A stretch of DNA of 64,000 nucleotides. Source: Pocillopora damicornis. Taxonomy: Eukaryota. The position numbers were made by a program, and so were the translations under genes. The stretch spans positions 62,001 to 126,000 of the forward strand of contig NW_020847187.1 of assembly GCF_003704095.1 (NCBI RefSeq), written 5' to 3'. How positions within the stretch are numbered: position 1 is the first letter of the stretch; every line of letters starts with the position of its first letter. Positions 4,183 to 63,693 of this stretch are shown here, in pieces. Under the pieces are notes generated by a model, which saw nothing but the letters and a program-made list of their open reading frames with translations, was not told where the DNA came from and made no database searches.

Positions 4183-4213
<31 letters not shown>

Positions 4214-36402: not shown

Positions 36403-39400
36403 ATGAAGCTACTGTTCTTTTGTCTTCTCTCTACAAGCCTGGTGTGTACAAGTGTAAAAGGTGCGTTTATGTTAATTTTTCTTTCAAGGGCTTTCATTGA
36501 AATGGAACGAGAATTTCACTCATTTGAAACGTAAAATTGGAGAAGAAGCATGTATTTTTAGCATTCTGTTTAGCATTCATAGTGTATTTAAATCATGAAC
36601 TTTCACGTTGTTACTGAAGAACTGAGAATTCTGAATTTTATTGTTACTTTCTTTTATTCTAGCTACTCTACAGAGAGATGTCATCACATACATGAACGTG
36701 TTTCGGCATTTGCACGCGGCTGGACCACTGTTGGTTGATGATGTCATCCAGAAAAACGCACAAAATGCGGCCGTGTTGTTCATGAAAGCCAAAAGCAAAG
36801 ACAATGTTCCAATTTACAGATACAGTGCCAACTTCTGCAAGTATAAGGGATCTGTAGTGGATCTGGACAAAACGTGTGTTACATCATGGTACGTGTCGAT
36901 GAAGTATTACGTTTGGTGTCATCCAAAAGCCGAGGGGCAAGCTCTTCCATTCGTGAACATGATTTGGAAAGCCAGCACTAAAGCAGGAGTAGGGATAGCA
37001 AAAGACACAGATGAAACATATTACGTGGTCGTGTATATTGCGCTTCAGGATGAAAATAATGTGTTGAGAAACGTGCCACCGGTAAAAAGTAAGTATTTCT
37101 TATTGCTTTTCGTAACTTCCAAGCTTTAAAAGCAGATACTCGATCTCATTTGATAATGTAAAACATCTTCGCTGGCCTTTCCTGAGAAATGTTTGCTATT
37201 CCGAAAGAAAATTCTAGAGCAATTTGTAATTATTAGTCCAGTTAGTGAAGAAAATAACGTTTCATAGGAAAGGTAAGGAAATTGCACAAAATGGAAAAGG
37301 GCCTGAGAGGGGAGATGAAAGGAACAGCTATTTGTTATTTGCTTAAATTGATACACATCGTTGATATTATAATAACGCAAACCCGTAATTATGGTTGTCT
37401 CTCACTTAGAGAGGTAAAGAAATTTCACTCTAATGCATATCAGTTCTGACATTTTTTTAAAACTATCATTTGCAGTCGTAATGGAGGCAAGCCCATTAGG
37501 TAAGATCCTGCCATGGTTGTCAACAACAACAAAAACGAAAAAGCAACTTTATTTATGTTTTCTTGACTTGACTTGACTTGATGAAATTCTAAATTATTTT
37601 GCCTACATTTACAGCAAAATGCCCTGCAGGTTACTCAAGATATGAAACGTCTTGTTTCAAATATGAGACGACTTCAGTAACCTGGGACGAAGCAGTGACA
37701 CGCTGCGCAAGAGAAAATGCGACTTTAGCCTCTATCAGAAATGCTAAAGAGGAAGAATTTGTGAGAGGGTTGCAAAAGAAAACTGGGTCGGGAATGGAGA
37801 CTTGGATTGGTATGAAACATTTACCATATAAGGAGTTGAATTCATACCTGTAGTTTGTTTGATTATTCTAGCCATGTTTCTTTTAAAAGAAATTTCGGAA
37901 AATAGCTGATTCAAACAATAATTACGAGTGAAAACTAGTTATCAAAGCATCCTCTTCATTATTCTAACGATGTCTAATATGCTATCCGCATAAAAAAAAA
38001 GACGGAACCTTTCCAACTTAACATGTTTTGAAACATTAATTCATATTCCGTAGTTCAGGTAGATTATATATTATAAGTCCCCCTTCAAATTTTTAACTTC
38101 ATTTCTAGAACTAGACCCTAAGCGCGTATTGGAAAAGGAGGAAGGATATGATAGAGTATATTTAATTCACTGTTCCTACTAGAGGATAGGATAAATTATG
38201 GCAGATCGACACTCAACAGGTTTACACGATAGTTTACACGAAGGTAGCTTTAAATGGTTTGACGGACTGAAGTTCAAAAGTCACGTGTGTGTTCCGGTTC
38301 ATGCCGATGGTGGAAACTTGGAAAATTGTGTGGCATGGAGCATTCGCAAACCCAAAGGATGCTGGGACGATAGACCATGCAACGAAAAAAGACCTTTTAC
38401 ATGTAGGATTCCCGTTGAAGGTAGAGTAAACTTCAATATACAGCTCTAGAGTGGATCAAGAGGGGGAGGGGGGAGGGGGTCTTTACTCTAATTTTTGTAG
38501 CATTTATTTTTTTCTGTTCCTGTTTTCTTTGGTGACTTTTGTAAATTTAGGTGTTGACGGTATAGGTATGAAGTAAGGCTTCACTTTCACGTCCACTTTT
38601 TGGCGCTGTCATGATATGCTATCTGCATCTCACCTGTTATAGGAGTGAGCAAAGTCACATGAATTCGTTGAAGTACAAATATTAACTTCATTTTAATTAC
38701 GCCGTAAAATGTCTGGTTTTCATTTCGAGTTTTTATTGATCGACACACAAGTTGATTTAAATCATAGTTAAAATTTACAGAAAAACGGAGATAGTATTAA
38801 TTAAACATCATTCTTCTGTCGCTATCATCGCGTTAAAGTTTTAAGGGCGTAGCTCTTAACCGATTAAACTTTAGGTGAGACACCTCGAAGAATTACGAGG
38901 CTTAGAAAATTTTAAAGAACCATAGCTTATACCAGATGTCACTCTGATAAAAACATACTCTCGTTTCCTGGCTTAAGAGCCAAGGAAACCCATATGCATT
39001 ATCAAATAACGCAAGGGATTTTTTTTGTTAATTGTTTGAACAGGCAAATCAACTTACAGAACTGAGGTCCTGTTCAAAAAATTCCGCTGGAGAGCGAACT
39101 ATAAAGATAAAAATTCCAAGGCCTACAGAGATCTGGTAAATGGAATCAAAATAACGGTATGGAAATGGTTTAGTAACTTTACACATATAAATCACGAAAC
39201 TCTCTGATTAAACCATGGTTACAATATATTGTTCATAATCCTAACACTGGTTAAGTCTTAACTCTCTATTTCAAACATGGATATAATTTTCTTTGCCATT
39301 GTGTCCAGTTAGATGCTTGGATATCAAACTATACTTGAAAGATTTTTCAGATATTTAATGTGAGAAACCTCAACCTCTTGCCTAAGACCTAAGATTCGTG

Positions 39401-41945
39401 GGGTTGACGCCGGTAAACCAGAGGTTAGCATTTCAATTATTTCTGCTTTCAATTTTTAAGTTCAAAGAAATCTTCACACGAATGTCAGGGAAAAAGAAAG
39501 GTGGATTCAGAAAAGTTAAAGTTAAAGGTGTCAGGTGAGTCAATATCCTGTCTTTCGCTTACTCTGTGTTCCTTATTTGTATCACTGAGTGACAAGTCTG
39601 ATTTTAACTGCAAAAAAATAATTTACATGTATGTTGCTGTCTTGTTCTGAATTTTCTTTCTTCCTCTCACTTTAGGGCAATATCCTTCAAGGGAAGGTAA
39701 GTTCGTGTTTATATTGTAAATAAATTACAAATGTACCCACTTACATGGATTAAGTTTTGTCTGTCCCTTTTCCTTTCATGGATCACTGATTTTATGCGTT
39801 GGCTGTCGTAAATTAAAAACTGCACGACTCGATGTAAAAATTTATAGCATTTGCAGTGCAAGGTACTTCTGTACTAATCATGATACCAATTAATTATGGA
39901 TGAAAATATTATCCAGTAAAATGTTTCAATTATCTCCCATCAGACCTGCAGGCTTAGGAATTACGGTTTCAATCAAGTTTAGATCCTTCACCCCAGACCC
40001 CACTCTCCGGTTTCAGAAATTTCTGCGTCCTTCGGAAAAACTTCTTAGTATGACCATTGACAGACCAGGTGAGACTTGATTACAAAAAGAAATCACTCCA
40101 GTTTGAATAAGTTCTATTATTTCATTGTTGTTATCACTATTAGTAGTGTCACTATTGTGAATATTATCAATAGAGTTATGAATGAGAATTCTCAATTTGA
40201 TGTTCAGGGCAAAATGCAAATTTCTATGTCCTTCTTTTCGACATCATTTCAGTAATTATTCTTTTAATATCATAATTTTTCTTTGCTCATTAGATTACTT
40301 TATTTAACTGTCAATAGGCCATTGTTGTGGACACTTTTTGCGCAACCAAAATTTACTGTTTTCCTCTCTCACTTTGCAGACAAAGCGGAAGGACATACAG
40401 GTAATATAATCTCATAATTGCTGAAAAGCATTAAAAATGCACCGATTCTCACCTTTTTTATTGTCTTTTTTGACAAGTCACGTATCTTTCCTTAAGTGTA
40501 ATCAGTTAGACTTGGAAGCCATGATCACAGCGTTCCTGAAAATCGAACACAGTGTGCTTTGGTTATAGATACAATTTCTTTTCACGCTGAACACTTTACA
40601 ATTCGAATGTCTTGTTTTGATATTCCGTTTTTTTTAAGGCAAAGCAGGAGACTACTGTTATGGTTCGTGTAATAACCATGGAAGATGCACTTCCTCCCTT
40701 CACCCTTATAATTATCACCTTGGGCTCCCTGCACCGGCATACTCTGTGTACTACCCAGGGGTGCAGACCGTGACGGGCACCACTGACCCATACCCTGCCA
40801 GCTGTCCAATGACATGCAGTCAGTATCCAACATTAGACTGCTACATGCAGTGCAACGACGAATGTTGTGATAGCAGGGAAGGCAAAAGGAATTGGAAGGC
40901 GAAGGCCATCGAAGATCTAATGGAGAAGCGATTCCAAAATCAGGATCAACTTACTAGTGATGAAAGAAATCACACAAAGTTTGGATCTAGTTATTCAGAG
41001 GACAAAGATTCAGATTTGCAGCATAACAATGCTGAGTCACATGATAAAGGGGATGTTTCAAAAAATGTTATCAAGAGTCTCAAGAAAAAGATAAAAAGTC
41101 TTCAAAGGCTCTTGAAGAAAAAATATCAACCGGATAAGTTCGATTATTTCGACGACATTAACGATTCTACTGAACCAAAAGATGACCATGTTATCAATTC
41201 TCTCAACAAAAAGGAACAGTCACATGATAATGATGAGGAAAACGAACTAGACGCAATTGCACACGATCTCATTGATGATAAAAATGAGCCAAGAGGCGTG
41301 CCTGTAGGCAACACACTCAATAGGCCCGAGCTAGCAGAGAAAAATATCACAAACAAGGAAATCACGTACAATCATGAAGAGAGCTTTGGTCAAAAGGAAA
41401 AGTCCAAGGGCAGTCTACAAGACGACGATGGCAATGAAGACATCAGCCTTGAAAATCAAGGCGAAAAAATTGGCATTCAAGGGGACGGCACAGGCAATCC
41501 AGGTGACAGCATTGAAACAAAAGAAAATAGAACTGGACAGCATGATAGTAAAAGTGGCTTTACCAAAACTTATAAAACATCACATCTCGAATATCAAAAC
41601 GATTACATGGTGAAAGAAAGAGAAAATGCCGTGAAAACGATTCAACACGCAAATATCTCAGTTGAAGAAGAACCTATTAACAAAGGGAAGACAGCCAAGC
41701 AACACGACCCCATTAATGTCTACGAACCTGGAAATAGAATGATTGAGGAGAGCACTGATGAGGAAGGAGAAGGTGACGATTCTGAAAACGAACCACCAGC
41801 TGAACAAGGACTTTTGAGTTTGCAAGATTCTGCATTAGACCCAACTGAAGAAATATTGAATGAAGAGGGAATTGATGATGTTGGTAACTTTGGCAGGAAG
41901 AGAAACTTTATTCACAGGACAAAGTCAAGCCACTCTGATAAATAA
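36403..41945 (+). CDS. Gene D: secreted NOWA-like protein SP-CAP-CTLD-SEA-half CRD-CRD-GKR-acidic tail (~854 aa, 11 coding exons)
   Basis: Exons: 36403-36460 (MKLLFFCLLSTSLVCTSVK); 36663-37088 (CAP); 37476-37499; 37615-37809, 38220-38420 (CTLD); 39044-39156, 39461-39534, 39676-39696, 39944-40068 (SEA, e.g. WRANYKDKNSKAYRDLVNGI); 40380-40400; 40639-41945 (CRD CPMTCSQYPTLDCYMQCNDECC plus a ~350-aa D/E/N/K-rich tail). Total 2565 nt, in frame. Confidence 0.83.
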
Positions 41946-42808: not shown

Positions 42809-43020
42809 CATAACGGTAGCTAATCGACGAATTTCACATGTCACCACAAGCATGACATCATGGGTCTTGTCAACATCATGATCTTTACTTCAGGTGGTCA
42901 TTGTCTAGGCGGGGAATCTCAGCACCAAAGAAATCCACAGTTTCTTTTTGCTGGCGACCATGGTCTTCATGCTTGAGTTAGTGTCATGTTTACAACGCCA
43001 TAGAAGAATCAGTCTTGTGT

Positions 43021-43068
43021 TGATCACGACGTTTCGACTGCTATATTGGTAGTCTTCGTCAGGCAACG
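43021..43068 (-). ncRNA. Minimal hammerhead ribozyme motif at the other end of the Penelope remnant
   Basis: Minus strand CTGACGA-A-GACTAC-caatata-GCAGTC-GAAA-CGTC. Confidence 0.55.
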
Positions 43069-44467: not shown

Positions 44468-44515
44468 TTGTCGCCTGATGAAGACTAGCAGTATAATAGT
44501 CGAAACGTCGCCATC
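44468..44515 (+). ncRNA. Minimal hammerhead ribozyme motif at the end of the Penelope remnant
   Basis: CTGATGA-A-GACTA-gcagtataa-TAGTC-GAAA-CGTC; stem II is perfect, stem I is weak. Confidence 0.55.
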
Positions 44516-44672
44516 AATACACGATTGATTAACTTGACTTCTACATCGATATCGTGAGACACACGATGAAATGTTCATTTTTTTTATAAAAACCACGATG
44601 AACAACAACATCTATAGTATACAACGCCATAGTTTTTAAAGTAGGAAATCTTAGGTATATGAGCAATTATAT

Positions 44673-45218
44673 TCAGTTGAACCTCCTGTAAGCGACCACC
44701 TGACATGACAAGTCTGGTTGGTAGCTTACGGGAGGTAGCCACTCACCAGAGGTCAGGCCACAGGGGACCCATATTTCAGGTAATTTGCACATGGCGACCA
44801 GACCCTTTCGCTAGCGCTCATCGAAATCTATGGTAATAACTTTTAGCGGCTTATTCGAGGAAAAAAAAATTTATATAAAATATGATGATTGCCTTGTATC
44901 TCACAAATTATTTAATACAGCGTTTGGGTCAATTCACGTGAAAGGCACTCGGCCTGTTGCTTACATCAATTACGAGAAGTGCTGTCCAAATTTTCTGGGA
45001 ACGGACCACAAGCATAAAATTTAACAAAATGCACGTGGCTACAAGCATTTTAAAAAAGGCCTGAGACATTATCCGTAGCGCCACTTTTACGACATCTAGC
45101 AAAATAAGTTAGTTTCCATTTTCAGTGATTTTACCTGAAAACGTTTGGTGTTTTGAAAAAATAAGGTCGCCAACATGAGGTGGTCGCTTACCAGAGGTGG
45201 TCGCCAAGGGAGGTTTGG
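44673..45218. mobile_element. Tc1/pogo-type MITE-like element
   Basis: Inverted termini cagttgaacctcctgtaagcgaccacc ... ggtggtcgcttaccagaggtggtcgccaagggaggtttg. Confidence 0.5.
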
Positions 45219-46669
45219 TGTTCTGGCAATATCTTTCCCTCGATCTTACTTTCAATGAAGGGAAAAGCAATCGAGATATTAAAATTTGTCATTGGTGAAA
45301 AACGATATCAGGAATTTATTCACTCTGTTTTTATATAGCTGAATAGAAATTCTGAAATTCTCTCAGTCGAGCAGTAAACAACACCCCAAACGTGGCGAGT
45401 ATGTGCGACGCAATCGAATGGCTGAAGTCATGAAACTGAAAATTCAGTCATATCAATTTAAAATTTATTTTAAAACCAATGCGCCACAAGAAAAAAAAAC
45501 AGTGTTGTGTCGAATTTCGACTGTCTTTTGGTCTTGAAATACGTGCTCCTCTGACTTAGAGGGCTGGACATTTGGCGTTTTAATGGAAGCGAGCAAAGGA
45601 AAGAGAACAAAGTCGATATCAGCAATAACATTTAATCACTTTGATTCTAAGAAATTGGACAATGAGGCCAAAACGGATATCAAAGGTGGGCCGAAAACAA
45701 ATAATTGGTAAATGGAAAAAGGTAAACTGGCTTTGAAATTATATGAGACGAAAACAAGCGTGTGGATTTGCAGGTTTCTCAAAGGATCATAACTCAAAAT
45801 AAACAATTTTTTCGACTCGTAACGCCGTTGAAAAGATGATGCATATATTTATGATCTTCACAAGAGACAAGGCTGATGGCTGTAATGCGCTCTTTAAAAG
45901 ATCTCGGTGAGTACACGTTTAAATTTTAGCCCGTAACTAATTTGATCTATTTATTTCTTCTTCCCGCTATTTAAGATAAGGATGTCTTTCGTCCTTTCGA
46001 CAAAGTTTGTTTAAATTCCTGAAAAATGACTTCATCTCCTGCTTGTTATTTCGGTAAACATTGTAAACCTTTCGAAGATCATTCAAATGACGATCATTCG
46101 TTTAAAGGAAGGAATCAGAACGATTCAAGAACCATACCAAAGATAATTTACCCTTGAAGTCGCTTTGAAAGAAGGGAGAGGGGTTTATTTCTCTCTGTAG
46201 GCCTTATGACTTGTTTCTGTTCCCATGATATGTTGCCATTTATCTGCCATTTTTTACAGATCTCTGACAACGTTTTTCTGTACCTTATCTCATCCAACAA
46301 AAGTTACCCTACAAAACATCAGCCAATAGTTTTACAAACCAACCTTTAAAGTACCTATCAAATTCTCCGTATAGAGTCTTACAACTCATTTTAATTCACA
46401 GACTTCTGGTGAACCACAACAAAACACAGATCATTGTATTTAAATTACTTCCGAGGATTGCTATCCCTTTCATGTAAAGTCGATAGGGTAGAAGCGTTAA
46501 AATTTTACCCCTCTTGTGAATCTCGACGGTTTCAAACCTTTAAATTGATTTCTTAAAAAAAACGTTATGACCTCTGACTCGGCCTTTATCCTGAGGATAA
46601 AAATACAATATACCTATATGCCAACATTTAGGAAAACATAACCCAATAGGAGTTCTAAAAAACTGACAT

Positions 46670-46870
46670 GAGACTCTCAATGGGATTAACCATCAGCAGT
46701 AAAACGGAAAAAATAATTATAAAAAACGTAATAAATTTTAACCATTAGTCGCAAAAAAGTGGACAATAAATTTTTTTTTTAACTCAAGGGGAAAAAATAG
46801 ACCGTTAGCCGTAAAATGGCCATAATTTTAATCGTCAGCCGTTGGGTAAAAGTCACTCCATTGAGACCGT
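46670..46870. mobile_element. MITE-like element (copy 2)
   Basis: gagactctcaatggga ... tccattgagacc termini and the same subrepeats. Confidence 0.55.
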
Positions 46871-47320
46871 TAAACAATTCTTCCTATTTTCAATGACAAG
46901 TTATCTTTCTCACCGACTTTTGAACGGTCTATTTACAGTACAGGTATTAATTCTGTAATAAGTTGAAGGAAAGAAAATAGACACTGTAAAAATTGTTTAC
47001 CGTACACATCAGCAAAACAACTTTAAACTTGATCTTCCTTTATCCGTAATTCCTCGACAGGCCTTCTTGTGTAAAAACTAGGGGAAGGGAGGTTTTAGCC
47101 GAAAAAAAAAAGAAGGAAAAAGGGAAATTCGTAGTTAAATATTCCTAAGTTGAACTGACGATCCGATTCGCGACTGCAAATCCATTGTGTGGAAGATCTC
47201 ACGCCCTTAGTCTTTTGTTCTTAGTACAAGTTATACTCCATATGATTCGAACACATTTCCTTTTCAATTTTATGTAAAAAAAAAAAAAAATATGTTTGTT
47301 CATTTTAATTTCAGCATGAA

Positions 47321-50300
47321 ATGAAGTCACTTCAATATTTATTGGAATTTCTTTTGCCGGTAGCTGTTGCTGTGCTGTTTCTTAAAGGGCGATGTGCACA
47401 TGGTAAGTCATAGCTCCAGGTACTTTGATTCCGGGAACAGCTTCGATCTTCATGATTACCGTCCCAGCTGGGCGTAACACGTTACAGAATCGGTATTATT
47501 CTTGGAGAGAATGAACCCTTGAAGAGGAGTTGTAACTATGGGCTCTCTTAAGCCATTAAAAAGATGAGGGGGGGGGAGGGGGGAGAGAACTCTACGATTG
47601 GAATGAAATACAAAAGATATTTCAATGAGCTGCATGATAGTGTTGTTCCATGCACCTTAAAGACATCGAGTTCCCTGATCACTGGCAATGATTCCCACAC
47701 GTAAAAAGGCCTATAATGGTTAAGAAACTAATGTAAGCTATGTGTGAAAATTTTTCTTTAACCTGCAATAAAAAATGAGCTTTATTTATTGTAAAACTGG
47801 TCCATGTTTGCAGGTGCAGTATGCAGACGTCCAGTTGACATCGCCTTTGCAATTGATGCCTCGGGTAGTGTGGGATCATGGGGATATGATCAAGAGAAGA
47901 AATTTGTACAAAATACCGTGGCAATATTTGGAATATCTCGCTCTGGAACGCATGCTGCAGTAATAGTGTACAGCACAAGGGCTGAGGTTACAATATCATT
48001 TCCTCAACATAACCACTTCTGGAGTTTCTCCAGAGCAGTTTCCAAACTTCCTTATCCCGGTGGGTATACCAGAATTGACCTGGCACTGAAAAAGGCAGCA
48101 GAGGAGGTGTTTTCTATTGACGGTGGAACACGGAGTAGTGTACCTAAGATACTGATTGTAATGACGGACGGTTATCAGACACGTACCTCAGATTCTATCC
48201 CTCTTGACAAAGCGGTTCTACCCTTGAGAGCCAAAGGAGTTCAGGTTTATGCTTTGGCCATCGGGCAGTACGTGAGGGATTACGAGTTGAGGTTGCTTGT
48301 TGAAAAACCAGCACACATCTTCCGATCCAGTAGGTTTAGCAGTCTCAGCAGTGTTATATCGAAATTGGCAACAACAACTTGTACCAATGGTGAGTGTGTA
48401 ATGAAGTTTTTCAAAAAAGAAAAAACAACAGATCTGAAATTCCCTGTTAATTAATAACATTTTTCTCAAAGTCTCATGCCTCTGGAAACGAGGTCGGTAT
48501 AGGTAAGATGCCTTTCAGTAACTAGTCACTGATTAGCACTTCCACCCTCCAAAGCTCAGAGAAAGGAAATACATTTTTCCTCACACTATGCCTTACCTAC
48601 AATCCGTGTCAAAATTAGGGGACACATCATGTTTGAAGAGTTTTATTTATCTGTGGAAAAACACTCCTGTTTGTACCACACCCTAAATCATTGTCAAGAC
48701 CCCCCTCCCCTATTCAGTGTTGCCTGTATGTAGCTAAACGTTCATGGAATCACGATACGACATCGTTTTGGGAAGAAGAGGAAGAATAAGTTAACTCAAC
48801 AAGGGGAATTGGAAAGGTCAATGTGTCAGCAATTTTGACGCCTATAGTAGGGTAAAGGCAAGGTGTATACTCGTGCCAAGTGGCGCATCCAGCCGGAGTC
48901 TATGCCAGTTTCCTTGGCACAAAGCTACCAGGAGTAATACTTCTCCCTCCTGGATGGGATGCCATTCCATCGCAAGATTACCCCCAGCATTTCATCGAGT
49001 TTCCCTGACAATTCGCCGCTACCCATTTATACTCCAGTCGCATCCAGCCCGAGTCTATGCCAGTTTCCATGGCATAAAGCTACCAGTAGTAATGTTACTC
49101 CCTCCTGGATGGGATGCCATTCCGTTGCAAGATTATCTCCAGCATTTTATCAGGCTTCCCTGACAATTCGCCGCTACTAATTTATACTCCTGGGCGAAGA
49201 AAGGCACAGTGAGGGTAAAGCGTCCTATCCAGGAGTTCCACTTAATTTCTCGAACCATAATCCTCCGCCGGCCAATCACCAGGATTCCCATTATTGCTCG
49301 TGCTCTAGTCTCAATCGATAGTGTGATCGTGATCTCAAGACAGTATCTAAAAAAGTTCAAATTCAGCATGCCTTTTATTGAACACTGACTGATGTAATTT
49401 TTTGCAGCCCTACCTACGGCGTTCGGAATTTATCCACTTAACCAGCAAACCCGTGGAAAGGACATAAGCGCACGTAAGGCTCCTAAAGGTTACTTAAGTT
49501 CAGTAAACATCGTCTCTGGACCCTACGGGAGAGCTGGTGGAGCATTTTACCTCAAGGGAACATCCGACAGCTACATTGACTTCCCAAACAGCGCTCGTGG
49601 CAAATTGGACGCGTACAGTTCTATCTCAATATTTTTGTGGGTTTTCCCTGAAGGCACATCTGGTCCTATCATCAACTACCGAAGAGGAGGATATGGCGTC
49701 GGCCTTTGGATGACACGCTCCAAACTACTCGTGGGTCTTATTTACAGCCGCCGCAACTTTTACAGAAGAAAAATTTATTTTTACAATTTTTATCCAAAGA
49801 GGTGGTATTATGTTGGACTTACGTACGATTACAACCACGGAATTGCAAGTTTGTGGGTCAATGGCAAAATGGTGAGATGAGTTATATTTAAGAAAGCTGA
49901 GATGATCAGTAAGCCATAATGGGAGGTTTAACAATAACTTGGGCATTCAAAGTCAAGACTTCACCTAGAATAAGTAATACAGCACATGGTTTGAATCCGT
50001 AGGTAACATGTGATAATGTGGTGTGCACTTCCGGGTAAGTGTAGACCTGAGGAGGATTGTTGTCAGTTATGACTGACGTTTCGACATCCTGAGCTGAGGT
50101 CATCATCAGAGTCAAGTAAATAGTTGTTGTCATTCGAATGTACTGGGTCTGTTTCGTGTAAATTTATTGGTTAGATTAACCGTAAAGCTATTGGCTGTAA
50201 GACTTACGTGGCGTAAGGCGGTCGTGATCGGTAAGTTTCGATCCATCTATAAAGTTTGGTCGTTCTGGTCATGTGTGATTTTAATGTTAATATATTAGTT

Positions 50301-53300
50301 GATATGTAGGTTACAAACACCAGCTACGGCCCTAAAGCGAGTTGATGTCCGTTTGCTGTTAAAAAGATTTATTTGTTATTTTTCTTTTAGGCTTCTCACT
50401 TAAGGATTGGACGTATACACTTAGCTACACAATATCCCATTCGTATGGGTGCCATGAGCGACCCAAAGCAGTACTTTAGAGGCAGGGTCACTTGTCTGCA
50501 GATTTATGGAATTGCACTGACTGCCAACCAGATACAATCTGTAAAGACGAAATGTGCCGCCGGCGACAGTAAGTGATTTGATGTAATTCAGAAATATTTG
50601 GCTAGTAATTTGCCTTTTTTGACTTAAACTATGCTTAATAACTCAATATTTCAGAGAAAGATCCTTGTCTTGCCAGTCCTTGCAAAAATGGAGGGAGCTG
50701 CATTGTGGACACGAAAGATAACACCGGCTATCGATGTCGCTGCAAACCAGGGTACCGTGGACATCGATGTGACGGTAACAATTATTCGCTTGAATGTCTT
50801 TATTTTAATTTAATTCAATTTGATTTAGAACCAAGCTCAGGGGAAACGATGGCGTTTTCTTTTCACATAATCCCAAATAAAATTGATCATTGTCCATTTG
50901 AAATGTCAACACGAACATTTCCCTGAATGGAAAGAGAGAGAAAAAAATTTATTTGAGTTCAGAGGACCACCAACAGGTAATTTTAACTGTTGAATTATCA
51001 ATTGGTGAAATTATTTAGTTGCTTCCATGTGTTATCGACCGCAAACAGTTAAAGTGATACATAGAGAAGATGCATCAAGCGATAACTGCGAGATGTTAGA
51101 TTCACCTTTTTGAAGGCGGACCCAAGAATATCAAGCAGAACTTTACCGTTCACATCCTAATCATCATTATCGCCGTTATTATCATCATCGTATCATGTCT
51201 GCAGTTTCACGGTTCGTTTCGATCATCTTCCACTTTGGCCTTTGACTTCCTTTATTTGCAACTGCTTACAGAAAAACCAACACAATCAACTGGAAAGCCA
51301 ACAGCAAGACCAACTGGAAAGCGAACAACAGCAGCAAAAGGTAATCACAAAAATGTGGATCACGATAGCAACATAAAATTCTAAGTGGTGTAGATGACGC
51401 TTCGTACACTTATACTTTGGCAAATACTCGCAAGTATGTTGTTAGCAGCGAGCCTGAGATCCCTTTTCTAGAGACTGGTCCCTATAAAGTCATACTTCGA
51501 TAGCTTAATAAAAGGAATGAAAGTCTAGGTCTTGGCTTAAAGGTCATTCTCTTCTGTTTTGGGTTCGGATATTTTTATGGTATAAACTTCAAAACGAAAA
51601 TTATTTCGACCCCGAATGTTAGCACAGCATACCATAAAAATAAAGCATTCCGTGTCAGGCAAAGACGCCCTTGTCATTTGTGCATGTTTCTAAATGATAG
51701 GGACTGATGCAAAGAGGTACTTTCCTTTGCCTAATTGTATCCCTTCTCTAACATCACTAAGGATCACCGGGCCGAAAAATTCCAAAAACACCAGGACAGA
51801 CCACCAAGCCCGCCAGCACTGGAGGAGTAACCACCCCTGGAGCTATCACAAATATAAGTAAGTTTCCGGAACCATAGCAAGATTTTTCAAAACTGTTCAA
51901 GACAGTCATAATCTGTGCTTAACGCTTATTGACTGAAATGTATTAATAATGTCGAAGTAAAATATGTTATTGGTATGGTATTTCAAAGTAAGAAATTCGC
52001 ACACCGTAAATCTGAGGTCAGAAAATAGGGTGAAATTGCTCTGCTCCTTGATAGCAGCGAGTTATCTGAAAATAGAGTCCGTCATCTTTCTCACGTGAGT
52101 AGAACCTCACGACATTTTACTCTCACGAATCGTGGGTTACACATTTTGAAAATCGTCATGATCCAAACTTACTCTTACAGATGGTTTCCGTATAGAGGTG
52201 GTGGAGTTTATCAATCGATTGAGACGCCTGCATGGTGCAGGTCCTCTTATTATTTCCACTCGTATTTCTACGGCAGCCCAAAACTGGGCTCAAGTCTTGG
52301 TCTCCAAAGGCACAGCCTCCATAGATCCGAACACGAATTACGGCACGAATGTGTTCACCAAGGTTGGTTCTCAAACTGGTTTGGCCCAGTTGGCTGTGGT
52401 GACATGGTACACATCAGTGAAGCATTATGACTGGGCCAGGCGCCAGCCAAAAATTCTGGCACTGCCTTTTATTCATCTTGTATGGCTCTCAAGTAACTTT
52501 GTTGGTGTCGGATTGGCCAGGTCGCCATCTGCAAAGTTTTACATTGTTGTGTACTTTGACCCAATGCCTGGAAATAAACAGCCGTTGCTTAAAGAAAACG
52601 TTCTACCATATACAGGTATGCGACACAGAAAGAAATAATACTCACTTAACTGTCTAAACTATAGCGCGAGGTAATGATACAGGTTCTTAGTCCGGCGTTA
52701 AATACTTCAAAAGCAATTTTTTTCCGAAATTCAGAAAGGGAAATGTAGTAAAGAATGACTGTAAATTGCTCCGAATAGGAATATTCGTTACTGCTTTGGT
52801 TGTACCACGCACTTTTTCACCAATTCAAAGATTAGCAAGTTAGAATAAGAGGCAGAAAACGGAGATGTTGGATAAATTAAATGTTAACTTGGTATTTCAA
52901 ATCTTTATTCCTAGATGTATACATCCTATTGCAGAGTGGTAAGTAAATTATTGTCTCCTTTTCGTTTGTGATGCTCCCGCTCAAAAATTTGATTTAAGTT
53001 TTATTTTCTCAATAAATAAAAGACCCTACAATGCTCAGGGCTCGGGGATTAAAATCGAGAAGCTTTTTTTGTGTGTTTATAGCCAAAATGCAGGTTACAT
53101 CTCAGGGGCTATTCATTTCGTTAATCAATACCAAAGAAGTAATTATTCTACCACCTATTGCTCACTGCAGTAAAATCATCAAGGTGTTTCTGTGCAATAC
53201 TACGTATTGTAACTCTGTCAATCTCATTCAATAGCACTGTGTACCAAGGGATATACGCTACACAAAGGAACTTGTTACAGATATCATACGGATAAACAAA

Positions 53301-56300
53301 CTTGGGAGGGAGCATTGTTTCAGAGCGCCAAAGATAACGCTACCTTGGTATCCTTCCACCAGACATACGAGGTTGGCTTTGTCCAAAGGCTTATTACACC
53401 AGGAATAACAGGTTTAGTGTGGACAGGCTTGAATGATCGGATCACGGAGGGGACGTATACGTGGTCGGACGGTACCAGTGTTGATCACACTTCTTGGAAA
53501 GCAAACGAACCAACGGGTTTAAAGGAAGACTGTGTTGGTATAGAAGGGACTAGCTATGGCACCCTGATGTCTGATGCTCCATGTACTGAGCCACATAGTT
53601 ACGTGTCTAGAAAGCCACTTGAAGGTGAGGAATTGCCTCTTTATCTTACTTTTCAGAGACTTTTTGAGAGAACACCGATGGATTATATATCACGCCACTG
53701 CACGTTTGACCCAGAAAGCTCTAGCTAGAGCAGCACTATAGATCCTTAAAACATCACAGAGTCGCAGTCCACAACTCAGGTTTACTGAACATTACCTTCT
53801 TAGTGTAACAAAATGTGCGTACAACCCAAAACCAGGACGCATTTGAGATCTGTAGAAGGAACTAACTTTTAAACTGAAGTACAGATTTAAGACTGGTTCC
53901 TCACCTGCACATTCTAAAACACTACTTTTAGGACTAATTACATATCGAATGAAGATACAACTTACTTCTTTACTGTGGACGGATGACTACGGCCAAGCGA
54001 CGTCTTTCCCGTATTTGGACCTCAAGCAAAAGATAGAAACAATGGTAGGTTTTTGAGCTGTAAGTTAATCAATGTGTTATGGGTCAGTTGAAAACATAAA
54101 GAAAAATAGCCAAGTACAGCCGTTTCCATGTTATTGCGTACCATAAATTTGAGGATTTAACTACAAGGCACCCACACTGTGATTTTTACAAAGGCTACAG
54201 CTCTTCCCACGTCTCAATACACTTCCAAATAGTATCTAAGATATCAAACAGTTTTCGCATGTAGTATCGCATCTATAAACCACCTTAGAGTGGTCGTTTA
54301 TACAAATAACAAACTGAAGATGACCTCATCAGTTGATAATGGCCCTATTAATGCTTTTTTGCTATTATTGATTTCCTTCCCTAATTTTAGCTGCTGGAAA
54401 TCTTTAAGATTGATCCGACCTTCGTGTCAGGATATGTCGAAGATTTCAGGTAAATGCATGTATACTTTGCTGAGAAGACTTTAATCAGTGATCAGTTAAT
54501 TTCCTCTTTAACAAAACTTTTGGTGATGAAATGTTCGTATCTTTTTTCCATCTGATCATTAGCTTTTTCCCACAGCAAAACACCTAAGCTAATTTCTCAA
54601 CCTACTGCTAAGCCAACAAAGCCTGGTATTGCGACTCCTGCCAAGTCATCAGGGACATCTCCAGTCTCTGGAGCCACCAGACCAACACTGGTTTCCACAG
54701 GAACCACACAGGCCACTCCAGCGTCAAAACCTACTTCAGGTGGAGCAATTTCCAAGTAAGGAGTCGACATTAAAATTGTAATGATTTGTGGTTTATCGTC
54801 TCTCGCGGAAACAGGCCTTACTTAACAAACGAGGGGGCTACAATATCTTATGACCACAAAAAAAATAGTAAAAAAAAACTTCACGACCCAAATGTATGAA
54901 ACATTTTTCATCTTCTCTTTCGTTTCTCGGAAAAAAATCGATATAAACTCTTTTTTTTCTATCTGCTAGTGAGAAGTCGTCGGTGACAAGTTCAATTATT
55001 TTGAAGTTTGGACCAGGAGTAAAACCTGATCCTACAAAGCCATTTCAAAATCATTTGAGGAGGAACCTTGGAAGACTTCCAGGTCCGGTCAATCTGAAAA
55101 CTCTTATCCAATCCGTCAGAATAGTTCACCCAGGTAAGTTTTTACATAAATATGTGAAAGTGAACGAAAGTATACCATGGTTTTAAGGTAGACGCTAAAT
55201 AGACCTCCACAACCTACTTCAACCTTTTCCAATGTTATATTATGTATTTTTTCATTTATCTCAGGAGTTCCACCAGCTGTGTTGGGAACTTGTACACCCG
55301 CCTGCTATACCACTTGCCTCGTCTCTTGTAATCCATTTTGTTGCAATTCCAAAATGGCTGCTGGAAGCAATATACAGTACTCTGCCATGCGACACGCTGT
55401 AATAACCCAAGCAAATCGCAGGCGATTTATTATGCCTGGCTTTTCGGGGTATCCAATGGCTCCCCTCCAGACCATGGTACCGCAGGCCCGTGCGATGACA
55501 GTTCCAGTGACCCTGGCAATAAGATGTGTTCCAACCGTTCAGGCACCTTGCCCACCAGGCACTCAAGTTTCACAAACTGTTCAGGGCTCTTATAAAATGC
55601 CTCAACCTCGAACTATTCAAGGAATCTTGAGCCCAAAGCGACGTCCGATCGTGTCGATCCCACGCTTGACATTGTCAAGGCTTCCTTATTCAACCAATCA
55701 GCAGGCATTTCTCCCAAGGGTCGCCAATCCAGTGCAGATACCTTGTATACCAAGTCTTTATAACCTATGTCCACCATTAATACGTCCCCCTACAAAGCCT
55801 CTGAAAGTGACAGATCCTCCACAGCACATAATACATCTTCCACCGCCTCAGATGCAGCCACCGTGCACTCCTGGCGCATTCAATCCTTGTCCACCACAAA
55901 CAGGTCTTCCTTCAAGTCCTTTAAAATTAACAGATCCTCCTCAACACATAATACATCTTCCTCCGCCACAGTTACAGCCACCCTGTATTCCGAGTGCGTT
56001 CAATCCCTGTCCACCACAAATAAGTCCTCCTTTGAGACCTGTGAAAGTAACTGATCCTCCGCAGCATGTGGTTCATTTACCTCCACCACAGATACAACCT
56101 CCTTGTATTCCTAGTGCGTACAACCCATGTCCCCAGCCAATTATACCCCCTGTGAATCCTGCACTTGCACAATCCCCACCACAACAAATGAATCGTCTGC
56201 TACCACCACAGATGCAACCTCCCTGCATTCCATCTTTATACAATCGTTGTCCACCTCAGACGAATACTCCACCTTCCAAATTAAAAGTTATAGATCCTCC

Positions 56301-57696
56301 GCAACATGTGATACATTTGCCACCACCCCAGATGCAACCCCCTTGTATTCCTAGTGCGTACAATCCATGTCCTCAACCCATTAGGCCCCCTATAAAACCT
56401 GCACTGGCCACGTACCCACCACAACAATTTATGCGGCTGGTACCACCACAGGCGCAGACTCCTTGTATTCCTAGTGCGTACAATCCATGTCCCCAACCAA
56501 TTACGCCCCCTATTATGCCTGCACAGGCCAAATACCCATCACCACTTTTATGGCCTGTGCTTTGCATTCCTCTTCCTAACCGCCCTTGTCCTCCAAGAAA
56601 GCTTTCGAAACCATCACACAAGAAGGGCAAGTCTCGAGCTTTCATGCCCAAACCCGTTGTGAGTTCCTATGTGGTCCCGTATAGCAACTTACCATACTGG
56701 CAATCTCGGGTGGCATCCTATACTCCATTTGTCGCACCGCCATTTCCAGTCTACCCAATACGGCGATTTCCAACCTATGCAACCCAAAATTATGGCCAAA
56801 AACCACCATTTCAGCGGTATCGCTCCCCTGCCTTGTCTCAGGTGTCGCCAATACAGCCGTTTGGATTGCCTCCTTGGGGTCCAATGCCTTTCCCCTATTT
56901 CAGCCGAGTTACCAAACCTTCTCTCGGTGACAAACCTAAAAAGACTTTGCCTGAGCCTCCAAAGCCCTCTCAGGCTCCTCAACCGCCTAAGCCTATTCCA
57001 GTCAAAGGACCAATTTCTTTACAAGGTTCTTTAACTCTTTATCCTAAGCCAGCACCAATAGCTCCTCCTTTTCCTTTCCCTCCGTATCCCCCAGGACAAA
57101 ATCCCTTCTCAATGATCAACCCCTGCATCCCTTCTCTAGCGAATCCCTGTAATCAAAATACAGGAAATGTACCTTCAATACCTCCTACGAATTCGTACGA
57201 CAGAAAATCTAGGCCTATACTTTTAACACGACCTCTGCAGGTTCAAGGGAGCATTTATCTCAAACCACCTCCACCACGCCCATTCCCTATACCGCCGAGT
57301 TATACATCAAGTGTTATGAATCCTTTTTCCAGGCTCGTTTCTCCCAAACCACCAAATGCACCTCAGATAGCTGCGTCCCCCCATTCAATAATTGTTCAGC
57401 TTCCCGAAATTTCTCTTCAGACTGCTCCAGCATCTTTACTTCCAAAGCCTATCGTTCCACCTCCACCACCTTCACCAGTCTTTCCAAGTAGCTGTCCAAT
57501 ATCCTGTACTCACTATCCAGGAGTATTTTGCCCTTCATATTGCGCGAAATATTGTTGTAAAAAGAGAGGTAGGAAACAGAAGAGTCCCTCGAAGACGAAA
57601 AGTAAGAAGCCTGATAAAAATAAGATGCAAAAAGAGGCCAAGGCAAAAAGCAAAGAGAAAAAAATTTTGAAAGTGAAAAAAGCTAAGAAGGGATAA
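47321..57696 (+). CDS. Gene E: secreted NOWA-like protein SP-VWA-LamG-EGF-mucin-CAP-CTLD-SEA(split)-CRD-Pro-rich repeats-CRD-Lys-rich tail (~1793 aa, 15 coding exons)
   Basis: Exons: 47321-47402 (SP); 47814-48389 (VWA); 49408-49871, 50391-50568 (LamG); 50655-50774 (EGF); 51272-51340, 51762-51857 (T/K/P linker); 52181-52615 (CAP); 52915-52938; 53235-53624 (CTLD); 53932-54044, 54391-54449, 54576-54755, 54970-55133 (SEA with insert); 55265-57696. Total 5382 nt, in frame. Confidence 0.87.
47814..48389 (+). CDS. Gene E von Willebrand factor A domain exon with intact MIDAS
   Basis: [14 protein letters not shown] (DxSxS), [25 protein letters not shown]. Confidence 0.93.
48850..49240. repeat. SINE-like repeat with an internal 155-bp tandem duplication in gene E intron 2
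   Basis: 48884-49035 and 49039-49190 are near-identical direct repeats. Confidence 0.75.
50070..50114 (-). ncRNA. Minimal type I hammerhead ribozyme motif within a Penelope-derived short repeat (~50005-50120)
   Basis: Minus strand TGACT-CTGATGA-TGAC..GTC-GAAA-C-GTC-AGTCA: perfect 5-bp stem I, intact core boxes and a GUC cleavage triplet. Confidence 0.7.
55741..56590 (+). repeat. Coding 120-bp (40-aa) tandem repeat, 7 copies plus a degenerate one, in the gene E terminal exon
   Basis: cc[ctg]tg[ct]a..cc.....c.ta/tc aa.cc.tgtcc recurs at 55741, 55861, 55981, 56101, 56221, 56341 and 56461; unit approx [36 protein letters not shown]. Confidence 0.95.
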
Positions 57697-58461: not shown

Positions 58462-58561
58462 NNNNNNNNNNNNNNNNNNNNNNNNNNNNNNNNNNNNNNN
58501 NNNNNNNNNNNNNNNNNNNNNNNNNNNNNNNNNNNNNNNNNNNNNNNNNNNNNNNNNNNNN
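58462..58561. other. Assembly gap (100 N)
   Basis: Run of N. Confidence 1.
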
Positions 58562-60335
58562 CCCTCGGTAGTAACAAAACAACTCATATCTTTTTTTTCT
58601 TTTAGGGATGTTTTTAGATAACTTTCTGGTGTTTGTTTCTTTAACAAATAGTTATGTTGTTTGATGAGAAATCATATGCAAGCAATGTATAACTGTAAGT
58701 TCAAAGCGCTTCGATCTTTAAGGTGTAATTGGAATAAAATCATGCAATCCAGAGATTTATTGCTCATATTGTTTTCGCTTTTAATTCATCCACCAATCGA
58801 ACAAAATCCAACGCAATGCTAGATAAGAAACCGAAAGGTCCTTGGTAACCATATTTTAAATCAATATTACAATGACAGACCAAGACTTTCCTGCGCGAAA
58901 GTTGCCGATTCATTTCAATTGTACTTTAAGACCCTGATCTGACATTCCCTAGAGGATCTGAAAAAAGTGCATTTGTGCCATGGATTGATGCTATTACTCA
59001 TGATTTTCCGCTTTGGCCAAATATAAACACAGGCATTCGGAAAATTTGCGCGTACTATATGTGCATATGGTTGTTTCCTGGTCAGGTAATCAAATTCTGT
59101 TTGATTACGTCTGTTAGGCTAGGAAATTAAATCACAAATGTAAAAGGAGATCAGACAGTAAAATAAAAAAGTTCAATGATGGCTAGTCAAACGGTCTGTA
59201 TTTTTAATTTATACAAATGACCTCATAAAGTGTACGTAATTTTTGCTCAGCACTGTAAGGTTTTTTTTTGAAGGAGAGATAGTGAGACGCTTACAACTAA
59301 CCTTGTTTTTTCAAAGTAACAGGAAATCTGGGAAGTTCCTAGGAATAAATCTACAAAGCAACTCGTTCAATTCAGTTGAGGCAGTTTTAGTTTCTGGTTA
59401 AGGAGTTATGAAATAACATTCAAACAACCTGTTAGACTTCTTTCATCCACTGTTGAGATAACGAAAACAATCGCTAGTTTTCATTTAAAGCTTGAGCAAG
59501 CCAACTCATAAAATCGTGACTTCTTTATTCTGATATAAAAACAATCACCAGCCTTTTTTTAAGACCCGTGAACGCCGACTAGAGAAATAAATCTCTGTAC
59601 GTTTTAAGAGACATCTTTAAGAAAAACTCCATCAATTTTAATGACATGAAAAACGAAAGTTTGCTCCGATTTCCGTCTGGCACCTCTGTGATTGTAAATA
59701 AGCTTGTGACGTAACTGCTGTGATATTTAACCGTAAAAATATATTTTTAATTTCTATTTTGCACTTTGTGCACCAATTTCATGTAGTTCTTTAAAGAGAA
59801 ATAGATTACAGCTGGAGCGATTTAAGTCCGTATCGCCATTTCCCTCAAACGTTCTTCTATCAATGCTCTTAACTGCAACCTACTACTTTAGTTGTCTCAT
59901 CCTTTTTCAGTGTAACCTGCTCCATAAGCTTCAATGTTTAAATAAAATTACATAAAAACAACGAAATCTCGCCATTTCTGTTGGTCAGTCAACTCAAAAC
60001 ACAATGTGACTTATGACTGAAAATATTCAAAAGTTAGGGGATTGAGTCACCGTAACTAGACATCGGAAGTAGTTGTAAGTGAGCCATGTCTGGAGGGTTC
60101 TAGCAAAGACCAGAGGACTTCTTTTATTTGGCTCCGGAAACTATTTTATATCTGACATCCAGGTAGGGAATTTAGAACGTTAAATGATAATAATGGTGAA
60201 AACTGTATTTGCATCTTAGTAAGATGAACGTCTGGTATTTGTACCATAAATTGGGTTTGTCAGAGCATCCTTATGAAATTTGTTTTTGGAGAATCCTTGT
60301 AACATATCGGAAAAAGCGTAAAAATAACACATTAC

Positions 60336-61865: not shown

Positions 61866-63693
61866 ATGAGGGGACTCTTAGGAATTTTTCTTCTAACATT
61901 TGGTCTCCTTGTAAGAGCTAGAGGTAAGGACACGAAAATATTATATCCACCTTAAATTAAAAAACTTTCCTGAAATTCAAAGTCACAATAGATTTTACCT
62001 TTTCCTAACGTATTCAAACTCGTTATGAGCGACTTCCCTATCTATTCTTTGCATTGTTCTACCCGAGTTAAAATCAATCGATGTAAAGCTGTTGTTTTTC
62101 CACGGCACAACTGGTGGTCTCTCACAATTGAATAATTAAAAAAAACCCTTTTCCCAATAATACTGTCTGCCTGACTGCCTTAAGCTTCCTTGGCTAATTC
62201 ATCCACACAATGAAGTAATATTATAAACGTTAACTATTCTCCTGAGTTAGAATTATCTTCCTTTGAGAATTCAGGTTTTGGAACTATTACTGCAGTTAAT
62301 AAAAGAAAATAGACAGGTTGCGCGACTAGTTTCTAAATTAAGTTTCTAAATACGCAAAAACAGAGCAAGTAGATACGCTAGTTCTATTTTCCCGCCATTG
62401 GTGATGCTAGCTCTTTTGTGTTTTACTCTGCAGAACACGACAGTTTATCTCCTACACCAGGCCTTAACGACGGTTAGTAAAACTGACAACTTTCCCGTGT
62501 GGCTGTAGAATATATATGCCCTCAATATGCTTATTCGAGAGGCTGGAAACTCGTCTCAACCAATAAAAGCCATTAACTTAAGTGTTTGGAATGGACTGCA
62601 TTCCCTATCATCAGCAACCAAATATCCAAAAATCCCCATTACAATGGATGCCAATCACTGTTTTAAAAGCGAGAAAAAAGTAAATTTTATAAAAATTGAA
62701 GAGATACTTCCCATCTTAGAGGAGTTTGTGTTATATTACAGCATTTACCGACAGCAGTGACGAAACTGCTGCACCGTCTTCGTTCTCTGATTCTGCTAGC
62801 CGTCACCATCATAACGCCAATAACGATTGGCTATCCGAAGATGATGACGATGATGACGATGACGTCATGGACGAGAGCCAGCTGAATGTGCAGCCAGCTG
62901 CCTCAGCCAAGACCGCAGCAAAAGCTGCCGCTAAACCCCTCTCTACTGGTAGGTTGAAACAATGACGGAAGTCAACAAATAAATTGAATGAAACGTTTAA
63001 GTTTGATTCTTAATAGAACTGCAATATGATAGAGAAAGAGAAAAGTTGGTTCCCAAACTGACCAGACTCAGACTTACAAGTTAAACGAAAAATATGAGTT
63101 CGATGAAAAACTAAGTATGCCTCTACTTGCTTGTTTAGTCAGTTTGCCATGAACGCCGGCGGAACGAACGAGGTCTTTTAATAACTGATTTACTTACTTT
63201 CACAGTGACTTGTTTTTATCTTATCATATTTACACAGTGCAACTGGAAAGCAAGATATTGTACGAGTTGAGCGGTTATCGAAGGTTATTCGGTGGAGGCC
63301 CTCTTTTTAGGTCGGCAACCCTTGACATTGGAGCTAAAGCCGCTAACGACAAGATGCAGAAAGGAGGCGTGATCAGGAAAGATGCCAGCATCAAACACGG
63401 ACAACTGCAGTGCATAAAATTGATAACTTCAGACAAAGTGTCCGCTGAGTGCAACTCCTTTTGGTTAAAACAAATGCAGGATTACGACTGGTCAAAACCA
63501 GCACTGAAAGATAACAACAGGTTTTTCGTCACAGCCGTTTGGATGGCAGCAACTCATGCTGGAATAGCGGTCAAAAAGGGTCCTTCTGGAAGATACTTTG
63601 TGACCATCTTGGTCGATCCCGCTCCTGATGTAAATAATCCCAAGGCTCTTCCCGATGTTAAAAAGTTGAAAGCCAATGTAAAACCATATACCG
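61866..63693 (+). CDS. Gene F (5' part): secreted protein SP-acidic/Ala-rich linker-CAP, a fourth paralog of the family; continues beyond the window
   Basis: Exons 61866-61923 (MRGLLGIFLLTFGLLVRAR), 62434-62472, 62742-62948 (poly-Asp) and 63238-63693. The CAP exon (YRRLFGGGPL, YDWSKP, AVWMAATHAGIAV, ANVKPYTG|gtaag) ends exactly like the gene E CAP exon (ENVLPYTG|gt). Confidence 0.8.

What the first reader, a model, noticed from the sequence alone, without database searches (positions are those of the whole stretch)
53932..55133. SEA domain split by a 60-aa mucin-like cassette exon at the autoproteolysis loop; the same slot is variable across paralogs
Seen: the phase-2 intron position before the third SEA exon holds nothing in gene B (30367/30451). 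It holds a 21-nt micro-exon in gene D (39676-39696) and a 180-nt T/P/K/S/G-rich symmetric exon in gene E (54576-54755). Established: this position (F-R/S-x-G|S-V-V-V) is the tight beta2-beta3 loop where MUC1-type SEA domains self-cleave. Inference: the loop serves as an insertion port. The symmetric phase-2 exons can be skipped, so splicing could toggle a glycosylated loop. The canonical GSVVV motif is absent ([24 protein letters not shown]), so autocleavage is probably lost.
Basis: partly seen in the sequence, partly recalled or inferred. Interest (0 to 1): 0.7.

Follow-up and report, generated by a model that had tools for sequence, protein, structure and literature searches.

The report
Mucin-like loop inside coral SEA domain
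A secreted coral protein that likely helps build stinging capsules carries an extra exon, spliced in wherever RNA covered it, that puts a 60-residue stretch, predicted to be floppy and sugar-coated, into the hairpin where related SEA domains cut themselves; it likely is a fixed, old loop rather than a splicing switch.

Summary
Exon 54576-54755 (180 nt, phase 2-2) is spliced in by RNA contigs of 4 runs from 3 studies, and of a fifth by inference; no skip joint was seen. The flanks are a SEA domain: the Montipora ortholog passes the Pfam cut-off, and AlphaFold models with and without the insert match MUC16 SEA at Z about 14, with the insert disordered between strands 2 and 3. The slot is an ordinary SEA intron: 10 other SEA loci in this genome have the same phase-2 acceptor before x-G-S-V. 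The host genes are NOWA-like (CAP, C-type lectin, SEA, minicollagen-type cysteine-rich domains). All five paralogs lack GSVVV, including two with no insert. The insert is conserved in Stylophora and Montipora capricornis, and long inserts mark one clade that includes a Nematostella protein. The 'cassette toggle' is unsupported apart from one Montipora gene model. A lead: paralog F and the Nematostella protein share G-K-R-[QE]-V-T in the loop, a possible convertase site as in Notch and GPR126. New variant of a known kind; moderate interest.

The parts
47321..57696 (+). Gene E, 15 coding exons, 1793 aa: signal-peptide-like start, vWA, LamG-like, EGF, two T/K/P/G linker exons, CAP, C-type lectin, SEA with insert, cysteine-rich domain (CRD), Pro-rich repeats, CRD, basic tail
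   Evidence: 14 RNA joints, open frame, Pfam on exons and on the Montipora orthologs
53932..54044 (+). SEA exon 1 (beta1, helix 1), phase 1 to 0
   Evidence: RNA joints; Pfam SEA E 6.7e-4, positions 2-36 of 106, under the cut-off alone
54391..54449 (+). SEA exon 2 (end of helix 1, beta2), phase 0 to 2
   Evidence: model strand 51-62
54576..54755 (+). 180-nt symmetric phase-2 exon, 60-aa S/T/P/K/G-rich insert in the beta2-beta3 loop
   Evidence: included in X1, X2, X5, X9; pLDDT about 44 in the Stylophora ortholog model; 51 of 61 identical to Stylophora, 23 of 66 to M. capricornis
54970..55133 (+). SEA exon 3 (beta3, helix 2, beta4), phase 2 to 1; starts E-K-S-S-V-T-S in place of x-G-S-V-V-V
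55265..57696 (+). Last exon: exact CxxxCxxxCxxxCxxxCC domain, two-cysteine Pro-rich repeats, variant CRD, Lys-rich tail
   Evidence: pattern from PMC4195985
51272..51857 (+). Two symmetric phase-1 linker exons (51272-51340, 51762-51857) of the same composition as the insert
   Evidence: RNA joints; no significant sequence match to the E insert
39044..40068 (+). SEA exons of paralog D (39044-39156, 39461-39534, 39944-40068) with the 21-nt exon 39676-39696 in the same slot
   Evidence: RNA joints in X3, X13, X14; kept in the Stylophora protein P0043
29135..30620 (+). SEA exons of paralog B (29135-29298, 30309-30367, 30451-30620), empty 83-nt slot
   Evidence: public proteins P0042, P0044, P0046-P0061. 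No RNA was laid on B
63238..63693 (+). CAP exon of paralog F; its SEA exons lie past the window end (G000:C3822:127083-128248) with a predicted 168-nt phase-2 exon at 127530-127697 holding G-K-R-Q-V-T
   Evidence: exon predicted from splice signals and open frame only, no RNA

Best explanation
The 180-nt exon is a real, spliced-in exon that places 60 Ser/Thr/Pro/Lys-rich residues between strands 2 and 3 of a predicted SEA fold, and it likely acts as a fixed, disordered, probably O-glycosylated loop on an uncleaved SEA spacer in a secreted protein that is likely a NOWA-like nematocyst component. How it likely arose and works: SEA genes in this genome carry a phase-2 intron in the Arg codon of F-R-x-G-S-V-V-V (shown). 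This family lost the G-S motif and lengthened the hairpin (shown for all five paralogs). That would remove the strain that drives self-cleavage (inferred from published work on MUC1). Because strands 2 and 3 stay paired in the sheet, the loop then tolerated exons gained inside the existing intron: 7 aa in D, and 56-99 aa in the E/F clade, probably gained once before corals and sea anemones split (inferred). The SEA would serve as a rigid link between the CAP-lectin head and the disulfide-linking CRD/proline tail, with the basic, glycan-bearing loop projecting from it as spacer or contact for the capsule matrix (inferred, untested).
For: Inclusion joints in 4 of 4 runs (3 studies); single contigs of 4045 and 4101 letters run through the exon unbroken (X1, X9). 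X13 includes it by arithmetic on contig length and bin depth. SEA: Pfam 36.8 and 32.4 bits against a cut-off of 26.4 for the Montipora orthologs without and with insert. Models: with insert, flanks pLDDT about 95, loop about 44, order beta-alpha-beta-[loop]-beta-alpha-beta; without, mean 90.8. Top five structural matches are SEA domains for both models (1ivz Z 14.1, rmsd 2.2, 115 aligned; Z 14.2, rmsd 2.1, 111 aligned; next rows Z 7.6 or less). Same intron in 10 of 21 intron-bearing SEA loci. Insert present in Stylophora P0038 and M. capricornis P0002; E against M. capricornis insert p about 0.01 versus shuffles. Tree built without the inserts groups E, F and Nematostella P0025 at 95/94. CAP, lectin and CRDs in all five paralogs; NOWA has CAP (PMC3627010), lectin and 8 CRDs (PMC10014300). 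Glycine insertion in the loop strongly impairs MUC1 cleavage (PMC10556640).
Against: RNA evidence is assembled contigs at depth 6-15, which drop rare isoforms. The M. foliosa model P0001 lacks the exon. Glycosylation, lack of cleavage and nematocyst location were not tested. The E, F and Nematostella inserts show no clear sequence homology to each other (E-F p 0.20, E-Nematostella p 0.35, F-Nematostella p 0.044), so independent gains are possible. The tree root is a midpoint, and F and P0025 are long branches, so the order 'motif lost first, exon gained later' is not proven. The folded proteins were the Stylophora and Montipora orthologs, not gene E itself, and the alignments held generic SEA sequences, which steer the model. 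Two papers call NOWA medusozoan- or Hydra-restricted.
Confidence: 0.68

Rival explanations
1. Regulated cassette exon: some cells skip it, giving a SEA with a short hairpin (F-S-E-K-S-S-V), which might even regain slow self-cleavage, so splicing toggles loop, glycans and cleavage.
For: Symmetric phase; the skip form is in frame and the Montipora skip form folds well. M. foliosa RefSeq model lacks the exon while M. capricornis, 98% identical over the SEA, has it. A serine remains in the turn. The Nematostella record is named isoform X2. Gpr126 has an alternatively spliced 23-aa S/T-rich exon just before its SEA (PMC6954182).
Against: 0 skip joints in 5 covering runs of 4 studies. Both Montipora models start inside the vWA domain and each lacks a different low-complexity exon, which looks like annotation gaps. 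Any exon gained in an intron without shifting the frame has to be symmetric. No glycine before the serine, and one extra residue in the turn.
Confidence: 0.15
2. The loop was gained as a processing site: a proprotein convertase cuts in the exposed loop in place of self-cleavage, as furin does in Notch and GPR126, leaving a two-chain SEA that holds head and tail together without a covalent bond. Gene E would have lost the site secondarily.
For: F insert and Nematostella P0025 insert both hold G-K-R-[QE]-V-T, aligned by local alignment (score 51, p 0.044); G-K-R appears in 1.6% and 1.2% of shuffles. Notch2 and GPR126 are cut by furin in the same loop (PMC6954182). Minicollagens are processed by propeptide cleavage (PMC4863159); that the site is dibasic is recalled.
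Against: Two sequences only, motif picked after the fact; K-R alone appears in 15-20% of shuffles. The F exon is predicted, not RNA-checked. The inserts of gene E and of its Stylophora ortholog have no KR, RR, RK or RxxR site; M. capricornis has R-K only at the junction. F with P0025 has weak support (81/83) on long branches.
Confidence: 0.12
3. Near-neutral passenger: low-complexity exons drift into a permissive loop and have no role of their own.
For: B and G do without any insert. The insert diverges faster than the core (51/61 against 103/110 to Stylophora; 23/66 against 76/110 to Montipora). Similar linker exons lie elsewhere in E and B.
Against: Position, length (58-60 aa) and composition are kept between Pocillopora, Stylophora and Montipora, and it is included in all covering RNA runs.
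Confidence: 0.05

Closest known systems
MUC1-type SEA domain (Pfam PF01390; MUC16 SEA 1ivz and 7sa9, TMPRSS SEA 2e7v)
   Same: Fold and strand order; the loop position equals the MUC1 cleavage hairpin
   Different: No G-S-V-V-V; the hairpin carries 0-99 extra residues; the protein appears secreted with no transmembrane segment, and the mucin-like stretch lies inside the SEA, not next to it
Notch heterodimerisation domain (S1 loop) and GPR126 SEA
   Same: A long unstructured or furin-cut loop between the same two strands (PMC6954182, PMC2726630; passages)
   Different: Here the loop is its own exon, S/T/P-rich, and in gene E has no dibasic site; only F and the Nematostella protein have one
Hydra NOWA, and the Nematostella NOWA-like gene NVE17236
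   Same: CAP, C-type lectin and C-terminal minicollagen-type CRDs in a secreted protein (PMC3627010, PMC10014300, PMC6161364; passages)
   Different: One or two CRDs per last exon found here against 8; a SEA domain between lectin and CRD; extra vWA/LamG/EGF or PLAT modules; orthology to NOWA and identity with NVE17236 not tested
Gpr126 exon 6 (23-aa S/T-rich alternative exon)
   Same: Small S/T-rich exon at a SEA domain
   Different: It lies before the SEA, not in it, and its alternative splicing is shown; here skipping was not seen

Membership tests
SEA domain | Profile match over the Pfam cut-off | tested here: met
   Orthologs 36.8 and 32.4 bits against 26.4; exon 1 of gene E alone 20.2 bits, E 6.7e-4; the other five SEA exon pieces gave no SEA hit alone
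SEA domain | Ferredoxin-like beta-alpha-beta-beta-alpha-beta fold matching solved SEA structures | tested here: met
   Z 11.3-14.2 for five SEA entries; Foldseek E 3e-5 for the no-insert model, 2e-3 with insert
Autoproteolytic SEA (MUC1 type) | G-S-V-V-V in a tight beta2-beta3 hairpin | tested here: not met
   Absent in B, D, E, F, G, in the orthologs and in the 11 further exon-3 fragments aligned
Autoproteolytic SEA (MUC1 type) | Self-cleavage of the protein | not testable with these tools
   Needs expression and N-terminal sequencing
Cassette (skipped) exon | Symmetric, frame-keeping exon | tested here: met
   180 nt, phase 2-2
Cassette (skipped) exon | Both inclusion and skip joints in RNA | tested here: inconclusive
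   Inclusion in 5 of 8 runs laid, 3 do not cover the site, skip in 0; contigs drop rare forms. One annotation model lacks the exon
Mucin (PTS) domain | Pro/Thr/Ser-rich low-complexity stretch | tested here: met
   S+T 36%, P 15%; only 60 aa
Mucin (PTS) domain | Dense O-glycosylation | not testable with these tools
   No predictor or glycoproteomics on hand
NOWA | CAP plus C-type lectin plus C-terminal minicollagen CRD | tested here: met
   definition
NOWA | Eight CRDs | tested here: not met
   One or two CRD matches per last exon; G has a variant spacing that the pattern missed
NOWA | Orthology to Hydra NOWA and expression in nematocytes | not tested
   No Hydra sequence came back; no cell-type data

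The most novel reading that the evidence does not exclude
In hexacorallian NOWA-like proteins the SEA self-cleavage hairpin was rebuilt by exon gain into a programmable loop: in the F/Nematostella line the new exon supplies a conserved G-K-R convertase site that replaces autoproteolysis (convergent with Notch S1 and GPR126), giving a force-separable joint between lectin head and cross-linked tail in the nematocyst, while in E it became an uncut glycan loop.
Probability: 0.2. Interest if true: 0.7.

Novelty: new variant of a known kind. Interest (0 to 1): 0.4.

Why it matters
It shows a simple route by which the SEA cleavage loop changes job: a common intron sits in the cleavage motif, so exon gain lands exactly there. 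It also gives a five-gene CAP-lectin-SEA-CRD family in corals with a Nematostella member, which makes anthozoan NOWA-like capsule proteins testable in a genetic model. If the K-R site of the F type is cut, nematocysts would use a Notch-like two-chain SEA joint. The gene E insert itself looks like a constitutive spacer, which limits the surprise.

Tried and rejected
Skip joint 54449-54970: absent from the full joint table; the joint table was cut (21 rows hidden), but X3, X14 and X15 have no depth over 54052-54685 and X13 none over 54686-55300, so none can hold it. Origin of the insert by copying a linker exon of the same gene or of gene B: no significant protein match (p 0.06-0.30) and at most weak DNA scores; rejected. 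Chondroitin attachment at Ser-Gly: 3 S-G in E and in Stylophora (p about 0.05), 2, 1 and 0 in the others, no acidic flanks in E; kept only as a weak lead. Sequence search of solved structures: best hit 1ivz, E 0.054. Protein atlas: SEA clusters at 0.83-0.84, lead level only. Region search with P0001 returned itself and six lectin-repeat proteins. Of 25 representative hits I read 22; P0037 was not used, and P0021, P0030 and P0033 were not fetched. Loci L039 and L040 and the 30 kb past gene F (L004-L006) gave no further family-type SEA; L040 holds a canonical one. For 11 of 21 intron-bearing SEA loci no third exon was found within the 1.5-kb flank, so they say nothing. Earlier findings: three look-ups, nothing returned. 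No complex prediction was run.

Full report
Setting. The window is G000:C3822:62001-126000, from a stony coral: the 90%-identity cluster of gene B holds records of three Pocillopora species, and several of the RNA runs that hold the stretch are labelled coral metagenome. It carries a tandem set of related genes, B, D, E and the start of F; a fifth paralog, G, lies on C3313.

Observation. RNA contigs of X1, X2, X5 and X9 (4 of 4 runs, 3 studies) give 14 GT-AG joints for gene E, among them both sides of the 180-nt exon. Joined by these coordinates, E is one open frame of 1793 aa. The SEA region has exons 53932-54044, 54391-54449, 54576-54755 and 54970-55133; the third is 180 nt with phase 2 at both ends. 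No joint skips it. In the second laying (X3, X13, X14, X15) only X13, whose RNA status is a guess by the tool, reaches the site: its 828-letter contig leaves 216 letters after the lectin exon, and the bin depths fit 114 + 57 + 45 letters, the last 45 inside the insert exon. That is an inference, as the joint table was cut. So 5 of 8 runs cover the site, all with inclusion. Contigs at depth 6-15 cannot exclude a rare skip form. The 21-nt exon of D is joined on both sides in X3, X13 and X14. The slot in B is an 83-nt intron and in G a 707-nt intron, neither with a candidate exon; the same scan finds the D and E exons and, in F, a 168-nt exon plus two weaker overlapping candidates.

Is it SEA? 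Exon 1 of E alone hits Pfam SEA at E 6.7e-4. The Montipora orthologs pass the cut-off without (36.8 bits) and with (32.4 bits) the insert. I folded the Stylophora ortholog with insert (103 of 110 core residues identical to E) and the M. foliosa form without, each on a 35-row alignment that included generic SEA sequences. With insert: strands 5-17, 51-62, 123-132 and 162-171, main helices 28-44 and 142-150, flanks near pLDDT 95, insert near 44. Without: mean pLDDT 90.8 and a three-residue turn at 61-63. Both match five SEA entries at Z 11.3-14.2, the next rows at 7.6 or less. The 57-residue MUC1 chain 6bsc_A (1041-1097) aligns to residues 5-62 of both models; that this chain ends at the scissile glycine is recalled. 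The exon junction is at residue 60.

The slot is an ordinary SEA intron. The genome gave 34 SEA profile matches, 30 of them fetched. Nine hold the domain in one exon; 10 of the other 21 show a phase-2 acceptor directly before x-G-S-[VI] within 1.5 kb, and 11 are uninformative. The intron thus splits the Arg codon of F-R-x-G-S-V-V-V in canonical SEA genes too. Any exon gained there that keeps the frame has to be symmetric and lands in the hairpin, so symmetry is no evidence of alternative splicing.

Family and history. All five paralogs have CAP, lectin, SEA and minicollagen-type CRDs; E and F have the exact CxxxCxxxCxxxCxxxCC pattern (pattern in PMC4195985). None has G-S-V-V-V, nor do the 11 further exon-3 fragments aligned from public data. 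Inserts: B 0, G 0, D 7, F 56 (predicted), E 60, Stylophora E 59, M. capricornis E 58, M. foliosa model 0, Nematostella P0025 99 aa. The E insert matches Stylophora at 51 of 61 and M. capricornis at 23 of 66 (p about 0.01). A 12-row tree built without inserts groups E, F and P0025 at 95/94, and F with P0025 at 81/83 on long branches; the root is a midpoint. The simplest reading is loss of the motif in the family ancestor and one gain of a long exon in the E/F ancestor; the inserts are too diverged to prove single origin.

The one hint of skipping. The M. foliosa model lacks the insert but has the second linker exon; M. capricornis has the insert but lacks that linker; both begin inside the vWA domain. 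This fits incomplete models at least as well as isoforms. I could not read the Montipora DNA or reads.

Mechanism. Self-cleavage of MUC1 SEA is driven by strain in the short hairpin, and glycine insertions strongly impair it (PMC10556640). A 60-residue insert should therefore block it (inference). The skip form of E would keep a serine in the turn but with one extra residue and no glycine. Notch has a 47-residue furin-cut loop, and its removal or cleavage barely changes the domain (PMC2726630); Notch2 and GPR126 are cut in the same loop as MUC1 (PMC6954182). So long loops here have precedent. Gene E most likely carries an uncut, basic, S/T-rich loop on a SEA that spaces the CAP-lectin head from the cross-linking tail. 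The nematocyst role is inferred from architecture: NOWA has CAP, lectin and 8 CRDs and drives tube invagination in Hydra, and a derived NOWA-like gene is cnidocyte-specific in Nematostella. I did not show that P0025 is that gene.

The lead worth following. The inserts of F and of P0025 share G-K-R-[QE]-V-T (local score 51, p 0.044; G-K-R in 1.6% and 1.2% of shuffles). If cut by a convertase, the exon would have replaced self-cleavage by enzyme cleavage at the same place. It rests on two sequences and a motif chosen after the fact, and E lacks it.

What is in print. Searches. 'SEA domain' with exon, intron phase and mucin gave 0 papers; with cnidarian and minicollagen, 1 paper, whose single mention is an unigene with a SEA domain and no further match. 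I found no description of this insert or of a CAP-lectin-SEA-CRD family, in a library that lacks most subscription journals. Seen as passages: PMC6954182, PMC10556640, PMC10014300, PMC6161364 (plus one supplement row), PMC3627010, PMC4195985, PMC2726630, PMC4863159, PMC8773148 (nothing relevant), PMC2629781. Not held: Pei and Grishin 2017 and the Hydra nematocyst proteome paper; Engel 2002 was seen only as a reference. The first of these may already treat inserts in this loop.

Verdict. Observation confirmed; interpretation partly supported. A real, old, apparently constitutive loop exon in a non-canonical SEA of NOWA-like proteins: new variant of a known kind, interest 0.4.

Noticed in passing
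G000:C3822:127530-127697 (L003), just past the window: Predicted 168-nt exon of paralog F in the same slot, with G-K-R-Q-V-T; Nematostella XP_032226184.2 has G-K-R-E-V-T in its 99-aa insert
   Followed up: partly
G000:C3313, L037 minus strand: Fifth paralog G: CAP, lectin, SEA without insert or GSVVV, CRD, Pro/Gln-rich tail; ortholog in Oculina (P0045, P0062, P0063)
   Followed up: yes
window 33534-34171 (+): Small predicted secreted protein of 81 aa between B and D, with an RRRR site, an acidic Asp/Glu/Tyr core and an Arg/Gln tail; looks like a processed precursor, no RNA check
   Followed up: no
window 29135-29298: Paralog B has a second insert of about 16 aa (Ser/Tyr/Gln-rich) before helix 1 of its SEA, and two cysteines in the domain; kept in Stylophora
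   Followed up: no
window 55265-57696: About ten two-cysteine Pro-rich repeats (P-C-x-P-S-x-x-N-P-C-P type) between the two CRDs of E; similar units in F, Montipora and Nematostella; possible further disulfide cross-link modules
   Followed up: no
window 40639-41942: Paralog D ends in a long acidic tail of about 350 aa after its CRD and a K-R site, unlike the Pro-rich tails of the others
   Followed up: no
window 42600-46900 and 48850-50250: Interspersed repeats, some with inverted ends, between D and E and in introns of E; many unrelated contigs map there
   Followed up: no
window 1-13800 (-): A separate multi-exon gene that by eye has discoidin (F5/8), LamG-like and PLAT exons; not analysed
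   Followed up: no
window 58463-58562: Assembly gap of 100 N between E and F
   Followed up: no
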